From: an uncultured Gammaproteobacteria bacterium
GTDB lineage: Bacteria > Patescibacteriota > Microgenomatia > Levybacterales > UBA12049
Assembly (NCBI GenBank): GCA_964624955.1
Contig: CAZUZF010000003.1
Span: 1-36,878 of the forward strand
DNA length: 36,878 bases
Direction of reading: 5' to 3'
The notes beneath the pieces were generated by a model. It worked only from the letters and a program-made list of their open reading frames with translations, had not been told where the DNA came from and did not search any database. Of this stretch, positions 9,758 through 33,301 are shown one piece after another (positions within the stretch are counted from its first letter, which is position 1; each line of letters starts with the position of its first letter). Position numbers and translations under genes: made by a program.

Positions 9758-10390
9758 ATGGATGATAAATATAAACTTGCTATTGACCCTTCCGATCCCA
9801 ACTTTCCCAAAATGATTAAGACAACAGAAATTCCTGGTCTTTTAATTTATCAAAGAGAAGTATTTGAAGATAATCGCGGTTTTTTTCATGAAATTGTAGA
9901 GCTTAGGGATTTGGAAAAAGTTTTAGGTAAAAATATAAATGTGGTGCAAAGCAACCATGCAAGATCTAAGCCTAATGTTATACGGGGATTTCATAGTGAG
10001 CCTTGGGAAAAAATTATTTATGTGGCAAAAGGGCAAGTTATGGCGGCAGTTGTAGATTTTAGAATAGATTCTCCTGCTTTTGGAAAAGCAGTAAAAATTA
10101 ACTTAGGGGACGACAATAGAAATACAGTCTATTTACCTTTGGGGATGGGAAATTCATTTTGTGTAACTGGAACTGACGATGCAGAATACTTCTATATGAT
10201 TACTAATTACTTTGAGGGAAAACCAACGCCAGCTGTATCATATAATGATCCAGTGATTACAAAACAATTTGGAGGATGGCCTATACAAAATCCAATAGTA
10301 AGTGAAAAAGACCAAAGCTACCCAACTCTTAAAGAAAAATTTGGGAGTTTGGTTGACTTTTCAAAATTCCCCTGGTTAAGGCAAGAATAA
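9758..10390 (+). CDS. rfbC: dTDP-4-dehydrorhamnose 3,5-epimerase family protein (cupin)
   Basis: 210 aa with DNRGFFHE and RGFHSEPWEKIIYV, the RmlC variant seen in actinobacterial-type enzymes. It is divergent from rfbB. Confidence 0.8.
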   Translation: MDDKYKLAIDPSDPNFPKMIKTTEIPGLLIYQREVFEDNRGFFHEIVELRDLEKVLGKNINVVQSNHARSKPNVIRGFHSEPWEKIIYVAKGQVMAAVVDFRIDSPAFGKAVKINLGDDNRNTVYLPLGMGNSFCVTGTDDAEYFYMITNYFEGKPTPAVSYNDPVITKQFGGWPIQNPIVSEKDQSYPTLKEKFGSLVDFSKFPWLRQE

Positions 10391-28893: not shown

Positions 28894-28915
28894 AAAAAAC
28901 CTCCCTTTTGGGAGG
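28894..28915 (-). terminator. Hairpin CCUCCC-AAAA-GGGAGG followed by U6, 1 nt before the serB-serA ATG. It reads as an intrinsic terminator, and its 3' arm is also the Shine-Dalgarno.
   Basis: Minus strand reads gcagagCCTCCCaaaaGGGAGGttttttaATG. The stem is plus 28900-28905 / 28910-28915 and the T-run is 28894-28899. Confidence 0.55.
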
Positions 28916-29028
28916 CTCTGCTTGTTATTTGTTATTTCTTACAATACCATAAACCTCCCAAAGTTCAAATAGGAACTTAATGAAGGTGAAAAATTATTGT
29001 AAACGTCAACTCTGCTATTCATGTTTTT

Positions 29029-29056
29029 ATTATACATTAACAATCTTAACTGTCAA
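29029..29056 (-). promoter_or_regulatory. Near-consensus sigma-70-type promoter (TTGACA - 16 nt - TATAAT) between the secA stop and serB-serA
   Basis: Minus strand reads TTGACAgttaagattgttaatgTATAAT. The -35 is at 29051-29056 and the -10 at 29029-29034, which predicts a leader of about 130 nt. Confidence 0.5.
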
Positions 29057-29065
29057 TAAAGAATT

Positions 29066-31768
29066 TTAGTTAGGCCAGTGACAATTTTTATATTTAACAG
29101 GAGTACCATCTGGTTTTTTATTTCCACACCAACATGGATCATTTCTTCCAAGTTTCTTCTTTGGCTTAATAGTTTTTTGATTATCTGATACTTCTTTGTT
29201 TATATTTTCTCCTGCTGCACTTTGGGTAACACCAGGTCTATCTAGTGGATTTTCAACAGGTGGATTTTGATGGACATGAATTTTATAAATTCTATGTACC
29301 ATTTCATCATCTATTGCATTTATTAATTGTTCAAACATTGTATACGCTTCATTTTTGTACTCAACTAACGGGTCTTTTTGGCCGTATCCTCTTAGACCAA
29401 TGCCCTGTCTTAAGTTGTCTATTGCGTCTAAGTGATCTACCCAAAGATTATCAATAACAGAAAGCGAGACAAATTTTTCAAGCTGCCTCATAACATCCTC
29501 TCCCATATCTTTTTCTCTTTTTTGATAAATATCATTTGCAATATTTACTAAAAAGTTTATTTTATCTTGCAAACTTCTAAGTTGCTCAAGCTGGCTGACA
29601 ATTTGCTTTAGTGACGGTTCATCAAAGGGAATAATCGTTCCGAAACTTTCTGCCATTTTTTCAGAAGGTGATTTTCCATCCTCAAAGCCTTCTAAATACA
29701 TATTTACAATCTCGGCAATACTTGCATGGATTTTTTCAATTAAATCCTCTCTTAAGTTACTGGATTTTTCATCTGTTTCTAAAATTGTTCTTCGTCTTTG
29801 ATAAATTATTTCTCTTTGTTTGTTTAATACATCATCATAGTCAACCAAATGTTTTCTGATATCAAAATTATACCCTTCAACCTTAACTTGGGCTTGCTCG
29901 ATAGCACGGGATACAAGAGGATGTTGAAGGGGAACGTCTTCTGGCATGTTAAATCTGGTCATAAGAGAAGAAATTGTATCTCCTCCAAAAAGCCTCATAA
30001 TATCGTCATCAAGGCCTACAAAAAACTGTGAAAGACCAGGGTCTCCTTGTCTTCCACTTCTTCCCCGCAGTTGATTATCAATTCTCCTTGACTCATGTCT
30101 TTCAGTTCCAATAACATATAATCCTTCTAAGCTTACTACCTCCTTGTGTCTCCTTTCCCATTGACTCCACTCCTTTGAATCTTTCTTATCAGTTCCATCA
30201 GGATTTTTAGGAGGCTGACCGCCTAAGATAATATCAACGCCGCGTCCTGCCATATTGGTTGCAACAGTAACTGCGCCTTTTTCTCCTGCTTTTGCAATAA
30301 TTTCAGCTTCTCTTTCATGGTTTTTGGCATTTAAGATTTCATGTTTTATACCTTTTCTTTTTAGAAGTTCGCTTACTATCTCATTTTTATCAATTGAGGT
30401 TGTTCCAACCAAAACAGGCTGTCCTTTTTTGTGTGCTTTTTCAATTTCAAGTGCAACAGCAGTAAACTTTGCCCTTGCTGTTTTGTATATTGCATCTGGC
30501 ATATCCCCTCTTATCATGTCTTTGTGTGTTGGGATAACAATAACATCAAGCTTATAAATTTTATGAAACTCTTCTGCTTCTGTTACCGCAGTTCCTGTCA
30601 TACCTGCCAAAATTTCATACATTCTAAAGTAGTTTTGCAGTGATACTGTTGCAAGTGTTTTAGATTCTCGCTGAATTGATACATTTTCTTTTGCCTCTAT
30701 TGCCTGGTGAAGCCCTTCAGAAAGCCTTCTTCCAATCATAAGTCTTCCTGTAAACTCATCAACCAAGATTACTTCACCCTCCTTTACTATATAATCTTTT
30801 TCTTTGTGAAATAGGGTTCTTGCTTTAAGTGCCGCTTCTAAATGATAAACAGTATCAAAGTCTTTCTCATAAATGTTGGCAATACCATAAAGCTTTTCAA
30901 TCTTTCCAATTCCATGGTCTGTTAAATGAGCGGTTCTAAGTTTCTCATCAATTTTGTAGTCAATTTCAGGCGTTAGTTTGTCAACCAGTCTTGCATACTC
31001 ATAATATTTCTGCGTTGGCTCTTCATCCGGTGCTGAAATAATATGGGGAGTTCTTGCCTCATCAATTAAAACAGAGTCAACTTCATCAACAATGGCAAAA
31101 TAAAAACCTCTTTGTGTCAGCGAATTTTTGTCTTGTGCCATATTATCCCTTAGATAATCAAAACCAAACTCGGAATTTATGCCATAAACAATATCAGTTT
31201 CATAAGCCTTCCTTCTTTCAATTGGTGACAAATGCATTAGTCTTACATCCAAAGCTTCTTTATTGGTAAATTTGGGATCAAATAAAAAAGACTGCTCGCT
31301 TATTATTGAAGAAACAGTTAATCCCAAAAAATTAAAGATTGGACCCATCCAACCAGCATCTCTTCTTGCCAAATAATCATTGACAGTAACCAAATGAACA
31401 CTTTTACCTGTAAGGGCATGTAAAAAAAGTGCTGGGGTAGCAGACAATGTTTTTCCTTCTCCTGTTTTTTGCTCTGCAATTTTTCCACGGGCCAAAGAGG
31501 CTGCTGCCATAAGCTGAACATCAAAAAGCCTTAAACCCAATGTTCTTACACCTGCTTCTCTAACCAAGGCAAAAGCTTCAGCCATGATACTTTCCAGTGG
31601 TTCGCCGTCTTCTACTCTTTCTTTTAGCTGCCTTGTTTTTTTGGGGAAATCCAAAGCCTTTAATTTTTTGACTTTTTCCTCCAAGCTATTAATTTGTTCA
31701 ACTAAGGTATCAAGTTTGCCAATTTCTTTTTCGTTTGTGTCAAATAATTTACCAAAGATATTTAACAT
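29066..31768 (-). CDS. secA: Preprotein translocase ATPase SecA
   Basis: 900 aa with the DEAD-like motor motifs (MATGEGKT-like QKTGEGKTL, DEVDSVLIDEARTP, TNMAGRGVDI) and a C-terminal zinc-finger tail CWCGNKKPDGTPVKYKNCH. Confidence 0.95.
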   Translation of the reverse strand: MLNIFGKLFDTNEKEIGKLDTLVEQINSLEEKVKKLKALDFPKKTRQLKERVEDGEPLESIMAEAFALVREAGVRTLGLRLFDVQLMAAASLARGKIAEQKTGEGKTLSATPALFLHALTGKSVHLVTVNDYLARRDAGWMGPIFNFLGLTVSSIISEQSFLFDPKFTNKEALDVRLMHLSPIERRKAYETDIVYGINSEFGFDYLRDNMAQDKNSLTQRGFYFAIVDEVDSVLIDEARTPHIISAPDEEPTQKYYEYARLVDKLTPEIDYKIDEKLRTAHLTDHGIGKIEKLYGIANIYEKDFDTVYHLEAALKARTLFHKEKDYIVKEGEVILVDEFTGRLMIGRRLSEGLHQAIEAKENVSIQRESKTLATVSLQNYFRMYEILAGMTGTAVTEAEEFHKIYKLDVIVIPTHKDMIRGDMPDAIYKTARAKFTAVALEIEKAHKKGQPVLVGTTSIDKNEIVSELLKRKGIKHEILNAKNHEREAEIIAKAGEKGAVTVATNMAGRGVDIILGGQPPKNPDGTDKKDSKEWSQWERRHKEVVSLEGLYVIGTERHESRRIDNQLRGRSGRQGDPGLSQFFVGLDDDIMRLFGGDTISSLMTRFNMPEDVPLQHPLVSRAIEQAQVKVEGYNFDIRKHLVDYDDVLNKQREIIYQRRRTILETDEKSSNLREDLIEKIHASIAEIVNMYLEGFEDGKSPSEKMAESFGTIIPFDEPSLKQIVSQLEQLRSLQDKINFLVNIANDIYQKREKDMGEDVMRQLEKFVSLSVIDNLWVDHLDAIDNLRQGIGLRGYGQKDPLVEYKNEAYTMFEQLINAIDDEMVHRIYKIHVHQNPPVENPLDRPGVTQSAAGENINKEVSDNQKTIKPKKKLGRNDPCWCGNKKPDGTPVKYKNCHWPN

Positions 31769-31770
31769 AC

Positions 31771-31881
31771 TTACTCAAGTCTAGCACATTCTAGCCTCAA
31801 AAAAAATCCCTCAACCTTGAGGATGAGGGATCCCAATTGATCAATTGGTAAATTTGGTAATGCTCCAAATAGCTTACCCAT
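31771..31881 (-). CDS. Candidate upstream mini-ORF 2 (36 codons, MGKLFGALPNLPIDQLGSLILKVEGFFLRLECARLE), ending 2 nt before the secA ATG
   Basis: My own translation of the minus strand. The ATG follows the TAA of mini-ORF 1 in the same frame (agaTAAATGggt). The ORF spans the palindrome and the terminator hairpin. It is below the track length cutoff. Confidence 0.3.
   Translation of the reverse strand: MGKLFGALPNLPIDQLGSLILKVEGFFLRLECARLE
31799..31830 (-). terminator. Strong intrinsic-terminator-like hairpin plus U8 upstream of secA
   Basis: Minus strand reads UCCCUCAuCCucaaGGuUGAGGGA followed by UUUUUUUU. It forms 7 bp, one mismatch and 2 bp with a tetraloop (plus 31807-31830), and the A-run is at plus 31799-31806. 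Confidence 0.7.
31833..31848. repeat. Perfect 16-bp palindrome CCAATTGATCAATTGG
   Basis: Read directly from the sequence. It lies 2 nt from the terminator stem and is preceded on the minus strand by a tandem TTACCAAAT/TTACCAATT repeat. Confidence 0.9.
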
Positions 31882-31911
31882 TTATCTCTTCTTCTTTCTT
31901 CTCTTTGCCAT
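31882..31911 (-). CDS. Candidate upstream mini-ORF 1 (9 codons, MAKRRKKKR) with a good Shine-Dalgarno
   Basis: Minus strand reads aaaGGTAGGTGAaatataATGgcaaagagaagaaagaagaagagaTAA. The SD-like GGTGA lies 6 nt before the ATG. Confidence 0.3.
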   Translation of the reverse strand: MAKRRKKKR

Positions 31912-31979
31912 TATATTTCACCTACCTTTCTTTTAGAACTAGTCTTTTAATCTAAAAATAGTACTTAACTTAAGTTTAT

Positions 31980-32006
31980 ATTGTAATATTTTAAGTCTAA
32001 TGTCAA
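31980..32006 (-). promoter_or_regulatory. Possible promoter for the secA leader (TTGACA, then TACAAT after a 15-nt spacer)
   Basis: Minus strand reads TTGACAttagacttaaaatatTACAAT. The -35 is perfect but the spacer is short, so this is tentative. Confidence 0.3.
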
Positions 32007-32077
32007 GAAATTTTGCTTGCTTCAAAACGAGGACTTTAGATTGATTTAGCAGTAAATTTTAATAAAGCTTCCTTTTA

Positions 32078-33301
32078 CTATTTTATTACACTTTTACCCA
32101 AATATTTTTGCAAAATCTTTGGAATTAAAATACTACCGTCTTTTTGCTGATAATTTTCCAAAATTGCAATGATTGGTCTTGTGGAAAACGCAGTACCATT
32201 TAAAATATTTACATATTTTCTCAAATCTCCATCCTGGTATTTAACATTAAGCCTCCTTGCTTGGAAATCAGTTGTTGTAGAAGTTGACGTAACTTCCCTG
32301 TACTTTCCCTCTGAGGGAATCCAGGCCTCTAAATCATATTTTCTTGCAGTTGGATAACCTAAATCGCCAGTACACATTTTTACAACCTGGTAGGGAATGT
32401 TTAAAGCCGAAAGCAACTTTTCTTCTAAGGACAAAAGATATTCGTGTTCTTTATCATCTTCTCCCTCTTTGGTAAAAGAAACCATCTCGACTTTATCAAA
32501 CTGGTGAACTCTTAAAATTCCTCTTGTATCTTTTCCATAACTTCCAGCTTCTCTTCTAAAACAGGTTGAAAACCCAACGTACCTTCTGGGAAGATCTTTG
32601 GCATTTAAAATTTCATCTTTGTGTATTGCAACAATAGATTGTTCACTTGTTCCAACTAAAACAAGATCGTCTTTATCTAAAATATACATGTCTTTATCTC
32701 CGCCGTTTTCCATGTACCCAAGCCCTCTCATTACTTGCGTTTTTATTAATACAGGCGGAATTATGGGGATGAATCCTTCTTTTAAGAGAATATCAAGCGC
32801 AAGTTGTCGTAGAGCAAACTCTAAAAGCACTCCATCATTTTTTAAATAATAAAATCTTGCACCTGAGATTTTAGAAGCCCTGGTAACGTCAATAATGTCT
32901 AAGTTTTCTCCTAAAAATAGGTGATCTTTTGGCTTAAAATCAAATTTTGTGGGATTTCCTACTTTCTTTATTACCTCATTATTCTTTTCATCTTTGCCAA
33001 CTTTTACATCGTCCTTTGCAATATTTGGAATTTTCAAAAGATATATATTTAATTCTTCCCTAACTGCATTTAGAGCGTGTTCATGTTGTTCAAGTTTTAT
33101 TTTTATTTCCTTACCCTTTTGAATATTTTTGTCTTTTGCTGCCCTATTTCTTTGTTCACGAAGAGATTGAACCATTGTATCAAGCCCTCGAACTTTATTA
33201 TCAAGCTCTAGTACATGTTCAATATTAACTTCAATACCCTTGTCTTTTGCTTTTTTTACGATAAGTTCAGGATTTTCTCTAATAAATTTAATATCAAGCA
33301 T
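32078..33301 (-). CDS. serS: Seryl-tRNA synthetase
   Basis: 407 aa with MLDIKFIRENPE, an N-terminal coiled-coil arm, and class II motifs FRREAGSYGKDTRGILRVHQF and GTAFSTRPIIAILENYQ. Confidence 0.93.
   Translation of the reverse strand: MLDIKFIRENPELIVKKAKDKGIEVNIEHVLELDNKVRGLDTMVQSLREQRNRAAKDKNIQKGKEIKIKLEQHEHALNAVREELNIYLLKIPNIAKDDVKVGKDEKNNEVIKKVGNPTKFDFKPKDHLFLGENLDIIDVTRASKISGARFYYLKNDGVLLEFALRQLALDILLKEGFIPIIPPVLIKTQVMRGLGYMENGGDKDMYILDKDDLVLVGTSEQSIVAIHKDEILNAKDLPRRYVGFSTCFRREAGSYGKDTRGILRVHQFDKVEMVSFTKEGEDDKEHEYLLSLEEKLLSALNIPYQVVKMCTGDLGYPTARKYDLEAWIPSEGKYREVTSTSTTTDFQARRLNVKYQDGDLRKYVNILNGTAFSTRPIIAILENYQQKDGSILIPKILQKYLGKSVIK

What the first reader, a model, noticed from the sequence alone, without database searches (positions are those of the whole stretch)
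31769..32006. Structured secA leader with two in-frame mini-ORFs reading through an intrinsic terminator and ending 2 nt before the secA start
The 309-nt gap upstream of secA (minus strand) contains the following, in order. A TTGACA/TACAAT promoter-like pair. A good SD (GGTGA) with a 9-codon ORF, MAKRRKKKR. A TAA immediately followed in the same frame by an ATG opening a 36-codon ORF, MGKLFGALPNLPIDQLGSLILKVEGFFLRLECARLE. A perfect 16-bp palindrome, CCAATTGATCAATTGG. A GC-rich hairpin plus U8 (31799-31830). The second ORF is translated across both the palindrome and the terminator, and its TAA (31771-31773) lies 2 nt upstream of the secA ATG, which has only a weak SD of its own (GAG). This geometry suits translation-dependent anti-termination and termination-reinitiation coupling. 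In concept it resembles the nascent-chain monitors SecM-secA, MifM-yidC2 and VemP-secDF2, although I see no sequence similarity to them. The basic stretch followed by a partly hydrophobic stretch also looks loosely like a signal-peptide n-region and h-region split by one stop codon.
Basis: partly seen in the sequence, partly recalled or inferred. Interest (0 to 1): 0.65.

Follow-up and report, generated by a model that had tools for sequence, protein, structure and literature searches.

The report
Conserved oligolysine micro-gene upstream of secA
The gap before secA in this Levybacteria (CPR) genome is probably not a secA leader: it holds a separate, phylum-wide conserved mini-gene for a 9-residue lysine/arginine peptide, with its stop codon buried in an RNA hairpin and its own terminator, while secA appears to start from its own leaderless promoter.

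Summary
Comparison with 150 distinct serS-secA spacers from related Levybacteria splits them into conserved and accidental features.

Conserved in 137 of 150 spacers:
- a TTGACA-N17-CAnnAT promoter;
- a very strong Shine-Dalgarno site (AAGGAGGTGA);
- a 9-34 codon ORF encoding MA/MP followed by Lys/Arg (69 peptide variants).

Conserved in most of those 137:
- hairpin P1, whose base contains the stop codon;
- a near-invariant palindrome P2 (123 spacers), which shares one strand with P1;
- a covarying GC hairpin followed by a U-run, in all 123 spacers with P2.

Not conserved: the second ORF. An ATG-started ORF reaching secA occurs only in this window (1 of 137).

secA has its own extended -10 box (TGnTAnnnT), 6-9 nt before the ATG in 120 of 150 spacers. 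This includes spacers that lost the element. Leaderless starts are the norm in this Shine-Dalgarno-poor genome.

Folding predicts that a ribosome at the stop codon switches P1 to P2, but the terminator forms in every state, so I found no antiterminator.

Best reading: an autonomous, translated micro-gene of unknown function, not a SecM-like monitor or a reinitiation leader. No transcript data were available.

The parts
32016..32046 (-). Conserved block upstream of the mini-gene promoter (AATCAATCTAAA at 32046-32035; TTTTGAAGCAAG at 32027-32016). Its role is unknown. It could be an UP-element-like region or a factor-binding site.
   Evidence: At least 80% column conservation across 104 aligned promoters. 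Coordinates.
32001..32006 (-). -35 hexamer TTGACA of the mini-gene promoter
   Evidence: Present upstream of the mini-ORF in 136 of the 137 spacers that carry it.
31978..31983 (-). -10 hexamer CAATAT with a 17-nt spacer. The family consensus is CAcgAT, with A2, A5 and T6 conserved.
Evidence: Position-specific counts over 104 promoters.
31918..31926 (-). Shine-Dalgarno site (GGTAGGTGA here; AAGGAGGTGA in most relatives)
   Evidence: A Shine-Dalgarno site lies 5-9 nt before the start codon in the relatives parsed, and 137 of 150 spacers have a Shine-Dalgarno-preceded mini-ORF. Only about 5 of 36 genes in the window have any such motif.
31882..31911 (-). Mini-ORF MAKRRKKKR plus TAA. This is the conserved polybasic micro-gene.
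   Evidence: 137 of 150 spacers carry it, with 69 distinct peptides of 9-34 aa that all begin MA, MP or MG and are Lys/Arg-rich, and the frame is kept through indels. AAG makes up 67% of its Lys codons, against 20% in secA of the same genomes.
31849..31884 (-). Hairpin P1. Its base includes the mini-ORF stop codon (TAAATGGGTAAGC pairs with GCATTACCAAATTTA).
   Evidence: 85.9% of cells paired against 14-48% for slid registers, with compensatory inner pairs. TAG stop codons covary with C in the partner strand, 8 to 0. P1 appears in the window fold.
31833..31848 (-). Palindrome/hairpin P2 (CCAATTGATCAATTGG; family core TACCAAyTGATCAnTTGGTA)
   Evidence: Present in 123 of 137 elements and near-invariant. 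Its 6 stem pairs never vary. Nearly all of the 120 metagenome hits to the motif lie between serS and secA, apart from a few chance matches and two loci with insertions.
31799..31831 (-). Intrinsic terminator of the mini-gene: GC stem 31831-31806 and U8 31806-31799
   Evidence: In 123 of 123 elements with P2, a hairpin (mean -16.3 kcal/mol) plus a run of 3-9 T lies close after P2, within 0-4 nt in 120 of them. There are 108 distinct stem sequences with several pair types at stem positions 5-9. Found by the terminator scan.
31794..31800 (-). TTGAGGC motif, a second copy of the TTGA(A/G)GC motif at 32025-32019. The two copies flank the mini-gene as direct repeats.
   Evidence: They are the only intergenic copies in the window. 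A single copy remains in spacers that lack the element.
31778..31788 (-). Extended -10 promoter of secA (TGTGCTAGACT; -10 hexamer TAGACT at 31783-31778), 9 nt before the ATG
   Evidence: TGnTAnnnT occurs in the last 45 nt of 142 of 150 spacers and is 6-9 nt from the ATG in 120 of 150. It is also present in spacers that lack the element. Other operon-first genes in the window have the same layout.
31766..31768 (-). secA start codon. No Shine-Dalgarno site precedes it, so it is the predicted 5' end region of a leaderless mRNA.
   Evidence: The SecA_DEAD domain starts at residue 8. N-termini align across 150 loci.
31771..31881 (-). ORF2 (36 codons). It is open in this window only and is judged a chance frame over P1, P2 and the terminator.
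   Evidence: 1 of 137 spacers has an ATG-started ORF of at least 30 codons ending near secA. The closest relatives (SecA 85-86% identical) have TTG and stop 25-26 nt before secA.

Best explanation
The spacer holds an autonomous micro-gene that sits between serS and the secA promoter.

Predicted from sequence and comparison, not measured:
- A sigma-70-type promoter (TTGACA-N17-CAATAT) makes a transcript of about 170 nt.
- The strongest Shine-Dalgarno site in a Shine-Dalgarno-poor genome loads ribosomes onto a 9-codon ORF encoding MAKRRKKKR. Relatives encode MAK(K/R)n, 9-34 aa. After probable removal of the first Met, the product is an oligo-Lys/Arg polycation.
- The stop codon forms the base of hairpin P1.
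- In most relatives a ribosome on the last codons or the stop codon must melt P1. The shared strand TTACCAA then pairs downstream to form the conserved hairpin P2.
- In the window's own clade that strand is duplicated, so P1 and P2 can coexist.
- RNA polymerase ends the transcript at a GC hairpin plus U8 in every predicted state.
- secA is transcribed separately from an extended -10 promoter that abuts the terminator, and is translated as a leaderless mRNA.

Inferred:
- The product that matters is the peptide, made in quantity from a short stable message. By analogy with minigenes, this could involve repeated translation by the same ribosome.
- The peptide would act as a nucleic-acid-binding or ribosome-binding polycation.
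- The P1/P2 exchange couples the 3' RNA structure to translation. Its output is unknown.
For: Coding and translation signals:
- The mini-ORF with a Shine-Dalgarno site is conserved in 137 of 150 distinct spacers. There are 69 peptide variants and at least 16 ORF lengths, all in frame.
- AAG makes up 67% of Lys codons in the mini-ORF against 20% in secA of the same genomes, higher in 118 of 120 loci. A-runs rarely exceed 8.
- Arg substitutes freely for Lys, and position 2 is Ala, Pro or Gly.

Own promoter and terminator:
- The promoter is conserved.
- The terminator is present in 123 of 123 elements with P2, with 108 distinct covarying stems.
- The terminator forms in all simulated ribosome states.
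- I found no selected complementarity between the Shine-Dalgarno site and the terminator's 5' arm.

secA independence:
- secA's own extended -10 box lies 6-9 nt from the ATG in 120 of 150 spacers, and is kept in the 13 spacers without the mini-ORF.
- Leaderless layout is usual in this genome.
- The element is ancestral and was lost cleanly from this locus at least 5 times.
- Mobile genes are inserted between the element and secA in L183 and L137.

Other:
- The element is single copy per locus.
- Minigene analogy: PMC4231749 and PMC6495379.
Against: - No transcript, ribosome or peptide data exist for these uncultured organisms. The one run labelled RNA looks like DNA, because it holds a 106-kb contig.
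- The element lies immediately upstream of secA in nearly all of about 175 loci. Insertions occur far more often on the serS side than on the secA side. That would also fit a cis role for secA.
- The near-invariant sequence of P2 and the conserved P1/P2 competition are not explained by a plain peptide gene.
- AAG is the rare Lys codon, so its enrichment could serve a translation-speed sensor instead of slippage avoidance.
- Nine residues is very short for a functional protein.
- The longer variants have no detectable homology to any known peptide.
Confidence: 0.55

Rival explanations
1. Translation-sensing leader for secA, using ORF1 only. The polybasic, AAG-rich mini-ORF reports ribosome or Lys-tRNA capacity. 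The P1/P2 exchange changes terminator efficiency or RNA stability. Read-through transcripts then add to secA expression on top of the leaderless promoter.
For: - The element abuts the secA promoter in nearly all loci. The terminator-to-ATG distance has a median of 28 nt.
- The exchange resembles an attenuator's 1:2 versus 2:3 pairing. P1 forms in 109 of 123 free RNAs, and P2 forms in 114-119 of 123 with a ribosome at the stop codon.
- The ORF uses runs of the rare Lys codon AAG, as some leader peptides use rare codons.
- Most internal genes in this genome start without a Shine-Dalgarno site, so an internal secA AUG could still be translated.
- A TTGA(A/G)GC motif is shared by both promoter regions.
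Against: - No antiterminator was found. The terminator forms in 123 of 123 spacers in all states.
- Pairing between the Shine-Dalgarno site and the terminator arm is no better than with shuffled arms.
- Arg replaces Lys freely, for example 4 of 8 basic residues in the window.
- secA keeps its promoter in at least 5 lineages that lost the element.
- The window's clade has a duplicated strand that abolishes the P1/P2 competition.
- A classical attenuator elsewhere in this window (28894-29022) does show overlapping antiterminator and terminator arms, so the organism uses that design where it applies.
Confidence: 0.2
2. Dual-function or regulatory small RNA. The RNA is the effector, through the invariant P2 hairpin or the single-stranded TTGATCArTTGGTAA segment. 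It would bind a protein or another RNA. Translation of the mini-ORF only gates which form is exposed.
For: - P2 is conserved far more strictly than pairing needs, loop included.
- P1's apical part is free to vary while its base competes for the same strand.
- The loop holds the self-complementary UGAUCA.
- The transcript is short, has its own promoter and terminator, and is single copy.
Against: - No target is known.
- Complementarity to the secA 5' coding region is not conserved.
- Some members (L064, L034, L045) lack a proper P2 but keep the ORF, a hairpin and the terminator.
- The polybasic composition and frame of the ORF are conserved more widely than P2.
- There is no Rfam match.
Confidence: 0.15
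3. DNA-level reading. The 16-22 bp palindrome is an operator for a dimeric transcription factor that controls the secA promoter.
For: It is a perfect, near-invariant palindrome that occurs once per locus and lies upstream of the secA promoter.
Against: - Its distance to the secA -10 box varies, because the terminator-to-ATG distance ranges from 16 to 401 nt. Its distance to the mini-ORF stop codon and to the terminator is tight.
- One arm also pairs with an upstream copy through a variable-length, covarying hairpin that includes the stop codon. That only makes sense in RNA.
- No regulator gene is nearby.
Confidence: 0.05
4. Two in-frame mini-ORFs are translated across the palindrome and the terminator, giving anti-termination and termination-reinitiation at the secA ATG, in the manner of SecM.
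For: The geometry exists in this one sequence.
Against: - ORF2 is absent from 136 of 137 relatives' spacers, including the closest relatives, which share 85-86% SecA identity.
- The frame is not conserved.
- The similarity between GKLF in ORF2 and FGKLF in SecA is specific to the window.
- secA has its own promoter.
Confidence: 0.02

Closest known systems
mccA minigene with ribosome-controlled terminator (microcin C operon; PMC4231749, PMC6495379)
   Same: - A tiny ORF (7 codons there, 9-12 typical here) with a very efficient Shine-Dalgarno site.
- An intrinsic terminator just downstream that would give a short monocistronic RNA.
- Ribosome occupancy affects RNA structure and stability.
- ORFs of roughly 2-15 codons can be translated repeatedly by one ribosome.
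   Different: - No MccB-type modifying enzymes lie downstream. The next gene is secA, with its own promoter.
- Masking of the terminator by upstream RNA is not supported here.
- The peptide is polybasic rather than ending in Asn.
- The stop codon is embedded in a conserved hairpin that competes with a second hairpin.
Amino-acid leader-peptide attenuators (trpL, hisL, leuL, pheL; established knowledge)
   Same: A short translated ORF dominated by one kind of codon, followed by mutually exclusive hairpins and an intrinsic terminator upstream of another gene.
   Different: - The terminator is not part of the alternative pairing and forms in all states.
- The downstream gene has its own promoter after the terminator and has nothing to do with lysine.
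- Arg substitutes for Lys.
Secretion-monitoring arrest peptides SecM-secA, MifM-yidC2, VemP-secDF2 (established knowledge)
   Same: A small ORF upstream of a Sec-pathway gene.
   Different: The known monitors are much longer, carry a signal or membrane segment and a C-terminal arrest motif, and act by opening a hairpin that hides the downstream Shine-Dalgarno site. Here the peptide has 9 basic residues and no hydrophobic segment, and secA has no Shine-Dalgarno site and is leaderless.
Very small, highly basic ribosomal proteins bS22, bL37, bTHX and eL41 (PMC10085706)
   Same: Very small, extremely basic peptides from easily overlooked ORFs (bS22 is 33 aa). They fill rRNA pockets.
   Different: - No sequence match.
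- Most members here are only 9-12 aa and of low complexity.
- Ribosome association is untested.
Dual-function small RNAs (SgrS/SgrT, RNAIII/hld, SR1/SR1P; established knowledge)
   Same: A short transcript with its own promoter and terminator that carries both a small ORF and conserved structured RNA.
   Different: No base-pairing target has been identified. The ORF is much shorter, and its stop codon is built into the structure.

Membership tests
Leader-peptide transcription attenuator | Short translated ORF enriched in the sensed amino acid's codons | tested here: met
   A Shine-Dalgarno site plus ATG plus a Lys/Arg-rich ORF occurs in 137 of 150 spacers. However, Arg substitutes freely for Lys.
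Leader-peptide transcription attenuator | Ribosome position selects between mutually exclusive hairpins | tested here: met
   P1 forms in 109 of 123 free RNAs. P2 forms in 114-119 of 123 when 8-14 nt from the stop codon are blocked. This is not met in the window's own clade, where the shared strand is duplicated.
Leader-peptide transcription attenuator | One alternative (the antiterminator) excludes the terminator hairpin | tested here: not met
   The terminator forms in 123 of 123 spacers in all simulated states. Pairing between the Shine-Dalgarno site and the terminator's 5' arm is no better than with shuffled arms.
Leader-peptide transcription attenuator | The regulated gene depends on read-through and has no promoter after the terminator | tested here: not met
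   An extended -10 box lies between the terminator and the secA ATG in 142 of 150 spacers, 6-9 nt from the ATG in 120. This is a prediction only; no transcription start site has been mapped.
SecM/MifM/VemP secretion monitors | N-terminal signal or membrane segment that engages the Sec/YidC pathway | tested here: not met
   All 69 peptide variants are polybasic with no hydrophobic stretch.
SecM/MifM/VemP secretion monitors | Arrest motif, and a stalled ribosome that opens a hairpin hiding the downstream Shine-Dalgarno site | tested here: not met
   secA has no Shine-Dalgarno site. The ORF ends about 110 nt before secA, upstream of a terminator.
mccA-type minigene with ribosome-controlled terminator | ORF of about 7-15 codons with a very efficient Shine-Dalgarno site and an intrinsic terminator just downstream | tested here: met
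   The modal ORF length is 9-12 codons. The Shine-Dalgarno site is AAGGAGGTGA. A terminator is present in 123 of 123 elements with P2.
mccA-type minigene with ribosome-controlled terminator | The terminator is masked by upstream RNA unless a ribosome is bound | tested here: inconclusive
   In the truncated RNA, the minimum-energy fold pairs the terminator's 5' arm with the Shine-Dalgarno region in 62 of 123 spacers. The complementarity equals that of shuffled or reversed arms. In vitro transcription is needed.
mccA-type minigene with ribosome-controlled terminator | Downstream genes modify the peptide (MccB-like) | tested here: not met
   The neighbours are lysS, rdgB, serS, secA and a HAD/2-hydroxyacid-dehydrogenase fusion.
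Very small basic ribosomal proteins (bS22, bL37, bTHX, eL41) | Detectable sequence relationship to the family | tested here: not met
   NCBIfam and Pfam gave no hits at E up to 10 for six variants of 20-34 aa, and the PDB sequence search gave none for one 22-aa variant. The 9-aa form is too short to test.
Very small basic ribosomal proteins (bS22, bL37, bTHX, eL41) | Physical presence in purified ribosomes | not testable with these tools
   The organisms are uncultured, and I did not look for a ribosome structure from this group.
Intrinsic (Rho-independent) terminator | GC-rich stem-loop followed directly by a U-run, with the stem kept by compensatory change | tested here: met
   Mean -16.3 kcal/mol, 108 distinct stems, T-run of 3-9.
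Leaderless mRNA (secA) | -10 element placed so that transcription starts at or next to the start codon, with no Shine-Dalgarno site | tested here: met
   The -10 box ends 6-9 nt before the ATG in 120 of 150 spacers. Other operon-first genes in the window have the same layout. The transcription start site itself cannot be tested here.
Any Rfam family | Covariance-model match at the gathering score | tested here: not met
   No match in the window or in six relatives. The only sub-threshold matches are driven by the terminator.

The most novel reading that the evidence does not exclude
Levybacteria carry a phylum-wide, single-copy gene of only 9-12 codons. Its oligo-lysine product would be a functional cellular polycation, for example a ribosome or nucleoid component in these reduced cells. 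It would be made by repeated translation of a short stable mRNA. Its stop codon sits inside a translation-gated RNA switch (P1/P2) that reports ribosome occupancy to an as yet unknown partner. That would be one of the smallest conserved bacterial protein-coding genes, coupled to a new kind of ribosome-sensing 3' structure.
Probability: 0.3. Interest if true: 0.75.

Novelty: new variant of a known kind. Interest (0 to 1): 0.55.

Why it matters
If the reading holds, annotation pipelines miss a phylum-wide conserved gene because it is only 9 codons long. The gene also uses the strongest Shine-Dalgarno site in a genome that otherwise mostly lacks such sites and starts its operons with leaderless mRNAs.

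It gives a concrete, testable case of three things:
- a functional micro-peptide in uncultured CPR bacteria;
- an RNA structure that is rebuilt by the terminating ribosome, with the stop codon paired inside a hairpin;
- how tightly terminators and leaderless promoters are packed in reduced genomes.

It also corrects an attractive but wrong idea, namely a SecM-like monitor for secA in CPR bacteria.

Tried and rejected
1. ORF2 as a coding frame. Rejected: it is present in only 1 of 137 spacers, and the frame relative to the conserved bases is shifted.

2. Antisense or mimic relation between TTGGTAA in the hairpins and TTTGGTAAA in secA codons 5-7 (GKLF against FGKLF). Rejected: that residue and codon vary among relatives (G, S, T or N; GGT or GGA).

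3. A reverse-strand hydrophobic ORF (MLQIAYQLFLLLLFLCH...) as a type I toxin. Rejected: an ATG start occurs in only some elements, in different frames, with a Shine-Dalgarno-like motif upstream in only one, and I saw no plausible leaderless -10 box upstream by eye.

4. mccA-like masking of the terminator by the Shine-Dalgarno region. The duplex energy is -8.5 kcal/mol, against -9.15 for reversed arms and -8.0 for shuffled arms, so there is no selected complementarity.

5. The palindrome as a DNA operator, dif site or parS site. Its distance to the secA promoter varies, the flanking genes are co-oriented, and RNA-level covariation involves the same strand.

6. Known families. Rfam, Pfam, NCBIfam and PDB sequence searches gave no hits.

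7. Transcript evidence. No RNA run holds the window sequence. The single run labelled RNA-Seq that matches a relative contains a 106-kb contig and covers serS, the spacer and secA alike, so it is probably DNA and uninformative.

8. tRNA-Lys mimicry. The TCAGTTGGTA segment resembles a tRNA D-loop from memory. It could not be tested because the fetched loci contain no tRNA-Lys gene.

9. A tiny TTG-ATC-ArT-TGG-TAA ORF inside P2. It is not kept in the window or several relatives, judged by eye.
Full report
**Observation.** On the minus strand serS ends at 32078 and secA starts at 31768, which leaves a 309-nt spacer.
- TTGACA at 32006-32001;
- TACAAT at 31985-31980, with a spacer of only 15 nt; CAATAT at 31983-31978 has the canonical 17-nt spacer;
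- the Shine-Dalgarno site GGTAGGTGA at 31926-31918;
- ORF1, MAKRRKKKR plus TAA, at 31911-31882;
- ORF2, ATG plus 36 codons, at 31881-31771, ending 2 nt before the secA ATG;
- the palindrome CCAATTGATCAATTGG at 31848-31833;
- a GC hairpin at 31831-31806 and a U8 run at 31806-31799, which the terminator scan also reports.

**Source and comparison set.**
- The SecA protein is identical to one on a groundwater MAG contig, GCA_016182215.1.
- The 80 best SecA relatives in GTDB genomes are Candidatus Levybacteria (Microgenomates, CPR), with 57-86% identity over the SecA N-terminus.
- serS-secA synteny is kept in most of them. The spacer is about 250-400 nt in most and 33-85 nt in about a dozen.
- A metagenome scan for the palindrome core TACCAAyTGATCAnTTGGTA gave 120 further loci. 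All but a few chance matches lie between serS and secA.
- After removing duplicates I had 150 distinct spacers.

**What is conserved.**
- 137 of the 150 spacers carry a Shine-Dalgarno site (mostly AAGGAGGTGA), then 5-9 nt, then a start codon and a Lys/Arg-rich ORF.
- There are 69 distinct peptides of 9-34 aa. Examples are MAKKKKKKK, MAKKKKRKK, MPAKKKAAKKKKK and MPVKKKTAHKKTTTKKATSKKTKTKAKKRK. All begin MA, MP or MG.
- The first T-A-A/G triplet after the purine run is always in frame with the ATG, across at least 16 different ORF lengths. That is hard to explain without translation.
- AAG makes up 67% of Lys codons in the mini-ORFs, against 20% in secA of the same genomes and 21% in the window's genes. 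It is higher in 118 of 120 loci, and A-runs rarely exceed 8. This fits selection against slippery poly-A. It could equally be a deliberate run of the rare codon.
- The promoter is conserved: TTGACA, a 17-nt spacer, and a CAcgAT -10 box with A2, A5 and T6 fixed. A strongly conserved upstream block precedes it.

**What is not conserved.**
- Only the window itself has an ATG-started ORF of at least 30 codons that ends within 10 nt of secA (1 of 137).
- The nearest relatives (L001 and L002, SecA 85-86% identical) have TTG instead of ATG and stop 25-26 nt before secA.
- The window carries a 1-nt insertion (TAAATGGGTAAG against TAGTTGGTAAG). This puts its ORF2 in a different frame relative to the conserved nucleotides.
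- The distance from the stop codon to P2 falls in all three frames, in 75, 28 and 20 spacers.
- ORF2 is therefore a chance open frame over structured RNA.

**RNA structure.** Three hairpins follow the stop codon.

P1:
- It has a conserved base in which the stop codon itself pairs: 5'-UAAUUGGUAA with 5'-UUACCAAUUG.
- Its apical part varies in sequence and length with compensatory changes.
- On a MAFFT alignment, 85.9% of cells pair, against 14-48% for slid registers. The covariation score exceeds 499 of 500 shuffles.
- The third base of the stop codon covaries with its partner. The counts are TAA with T 51, TAG with T 11, TAG with C 8, and TAA with C 0.

P2:
- It is near-invariant and its 6 stem pairs never vary, so covariation says nothing about it.
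- It uses the same UUACCAA strand as P1.

Terminator:
- It is present in 123 of 123 elements that have P2, lying 0-4 nt after P2 in 120 of them.
- The mean energy is -16.3 kcal/mol. There are 108 distinct stems with several pair types at stem positions 5-9, and a T-run of 3-9.

**Translation-dependent exchange.**
- In minimum-energy folds of free RNA, P1 forms in 109 of 123 spacers.
- If 8-14 nt starting at the stop codon are made unavailable, as under a terminating ribosome, P2 forms in 114-119 of 123.
- The terminator forms in 123 of 123 in every state.
- P1 alone averages -11.5 kcal/mol and P2 alone -7.2 kcal/mol.
- In the truncated RNA, before the terminator's 3' arm exists, its C-rich 5' arm often pairs with the G-rich Shine-Dalgarno region (62 of 123). 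That complementarity is no better than with reversed or shuffled arms, so I do not read it as an antiterminator.
- In the window and its closest clade the UUACCAA strand is duplicated. P1, P2 and the terminator then all coexist.
- The exchange is therefore conserved in most of the family but is dispensable.

**secA has its own promoter.**
- An extended -10 box (TGnTAnnnT, mostly T(A/G)TGnTAAAAT) lies in the last 45 nt of 142 of 150 spacers. It ends 6-9 nt before the ATG in 120.
- It is present in the 33-85 nt spacers that lack the element. In the window it is TGTGCTAGACT at 31788-31778, 9 nt before the ATG.
- The U-run of the terminator ends a median of 28 nt before the ATG.
- In the window only about 5 of 36 genes have a Shine-Dalgarno-like motif. 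Several operon-first genes show a -10 box 7-8 nt before their start codon.
- A leaderless secA with no Shine-Dalgarno site is therefore ordinary for this organism. The mini-ORF's Shine-Dalgarno site is the exception.

**Distribution.**
- On a neighbour-joining SecA tree, the element occurs throughout the sampled Levybacteria. It is missing from at least 5 separate small clades.
- In those clades the whole unit is gone and one copy of a TTGA(A/G)GC motif remains. In element-bearing spacers that motif flanks the unit as a direct repeat.
- In L183 a toxin-antitoxin pair and another gene separate the element from secA. In L137 a Bro-N-like gene does so.
- Larger insertions occur more often on the serS side.
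- The polybasic mini-ORF occurs once per locus in 1.5 Mb of fetched DNA.

**Database and literature checks.**
- No Rfam family reaches its threshold in the window or in six relatives.
- NCBIfam and Pfam gave no hit for six peptide variants of 20-34 aa, and the PDB sequence search gave none for a 22-aa variant.
- My literature searches found no description of this element.
- Useful analogues are the mccA minigene and tiny basic ribosomal proteins. For mccA, a bound ribosome induces termination, stabilises a 105-107 nt message, and can translate a 7-15 codon ORF repeatedly (PMC4231749, PMC6495379). The ribosomal proteins are bS22, bL37 and eL41 (PMC10085706).

**Interpretation.**
- The best-supported reading is an autonomous, translated micro-gene with its own promoter and terminator, packed against the leaderless secA promoter.
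- Shown by comparison: the coding frame, the Shine-Dalgarno site, the promoter motifs, P1 covariation, the terminator, the secA -10 box, and the independent losses.
- Inferred: that these signals work as in model bacteria, that the peptide is the functional product, and that it acts as a polycation. The free exchange of Arg for Lys, and Ala, Pro or Gly at position 2 (which allows Met removal), point to charge rather than Lys-tRNA sensing.
- The conserved P1/P2 competition and the invariant P2 remain unexplained. They keep two rivals alive: a cis role for secA, and an RNA effector role.
- A classical attenuator in the same window, described under the passing observations, shows what an overlapping antiterminator and terminator look like in this genome. 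The secA-upstream element lacks that overlap.

**Limits.**
- All sequences come from metagenome assemblies of uncultured bacteria.
- Promoters and transcript ends are predicted, not mapped.
- Folding results are thermodynamic only.
- No RNA run was usable.

Noticed in passing
window 28894-29056, minus strand (spacer between the secA stop and the next gene): Candidate serine leader-peptide attenuator.
- Promoter TTGACA-N16-TATAAT at 29056-29029.
- A leaderless 27-codon ORF, MNSRVDVYNNFSPSLSSYLNFGRFMVL, at 29022-28939, with a Ser cluster.
- GGGAGG inside the ORF end can pair with CCTCCC, the 5' arm of the terminator CCTCCC-AAAA-GGGAGG-T6 at 28915-28894.
- The terminator's 3' arm doubles as the Shine-Dalgarno site of the HAD/2-hydroxyacid-dehydrogenase/ACT fusion (serB/serA-like). 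An aminotransferase class V gene follows.
- It is conserved in L002, where the cluster is SPSSSS.
   Followed up: partly
whole window (36 predicted genes): Only about 5 of 36 genes have a Shine-Dalgarno-like motif. Several operon-first genes, for example those starting at 9758(+), 24153(-), 33899(-) and 35671(-), have a -10 box 7-8 nt before the start codon. This suggests widespread leaderless mRNAs.
   Followed up: partly
window 32019-32025 and 31794-31800; also L026, L062, L072, L074: The motif TTGA(A/G)GC, or its complement GCCTCAA, flanks the mini-gene as a direct repeat. These are its only intergenic copies in the window. Spacers that lost the element keep one copy before the secA -10 box. 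This could reflect repeat-mediated deletion or a shared regulator site.
   Followed up: partly
window 32016-32060 and the equivalent region in relatives: The 60 nt upstream of the mini-gene's -35 hexamer are unusually conserved (blocks GATTTTTG, CAATCTAAAC and TTTTGAAGCA). GCCTC just after serS is sometimes complementary to GAGGC. The purpose is unknown.
   Followed up: no
window 31833-31845; relatives' segment GATCAGTTGGTAA: The conserved segment TCAGTTGGTA matches, from memory, the common tRNA D-loop sequence (GCTCAGTTGGTAGAGC). The variant ATCAATTGGT matches part of E. coli tRNA-Lys. This could not be tested because the fetched DNA contains no tRNA-Lys gene.
   Followed up: partly
L183 167-919 and L137 3646-4497: Mobile-looking insertions lie between the element and secA. 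In L183 there is a 107-aa ORF plus a 123-aa ORF whose sequences look like a ribbon-helix-helix antitoxin and a PIN-domain toxin. In L137 there is a gene that looks like a Bro-N/antirepressor. All three were judged by eye from the translations.
   Followed up: no
L078 (255-nt serS-secA spacer): A decayed version of the element. The promoter and a GC hairpin remain, but there is no Shine-Dalgarno site, no polybasic ORF, no P2 and no U-run.
   Followed up: no
L037 and L053, last 100-190 nt before secA: In these two relatives the TATGGTAAGAT-type promoter is followed by a structured leader of about 90-190 nt with extra GC hairpins before the secA start. secA is therefore not leaderless everywhere.
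   Followed up: no
window 31882-31955, plus strand: The complement of the Lys run gives Leu/Phe/Ser-rich open frames (for example MLQIAYPFISSSFFSLPLYF...) that superficially resemble small hydrophobic toxins. The start codon and frame are not conserved.
   Followed up: yes
run X5 laid on L107 4600-5600: A public run labelled 'METAGENOMIC RNA-Seq' holds a 106-kb contig and covers serS, the spacer and secA alike, so it probably contains DNA. One 2.7-kb contig begins within about 2 nt of the predicted mini-gene transcription start and runs into secA. That cannot be interpreted without knowing what the library contains.
   Followed up: partly
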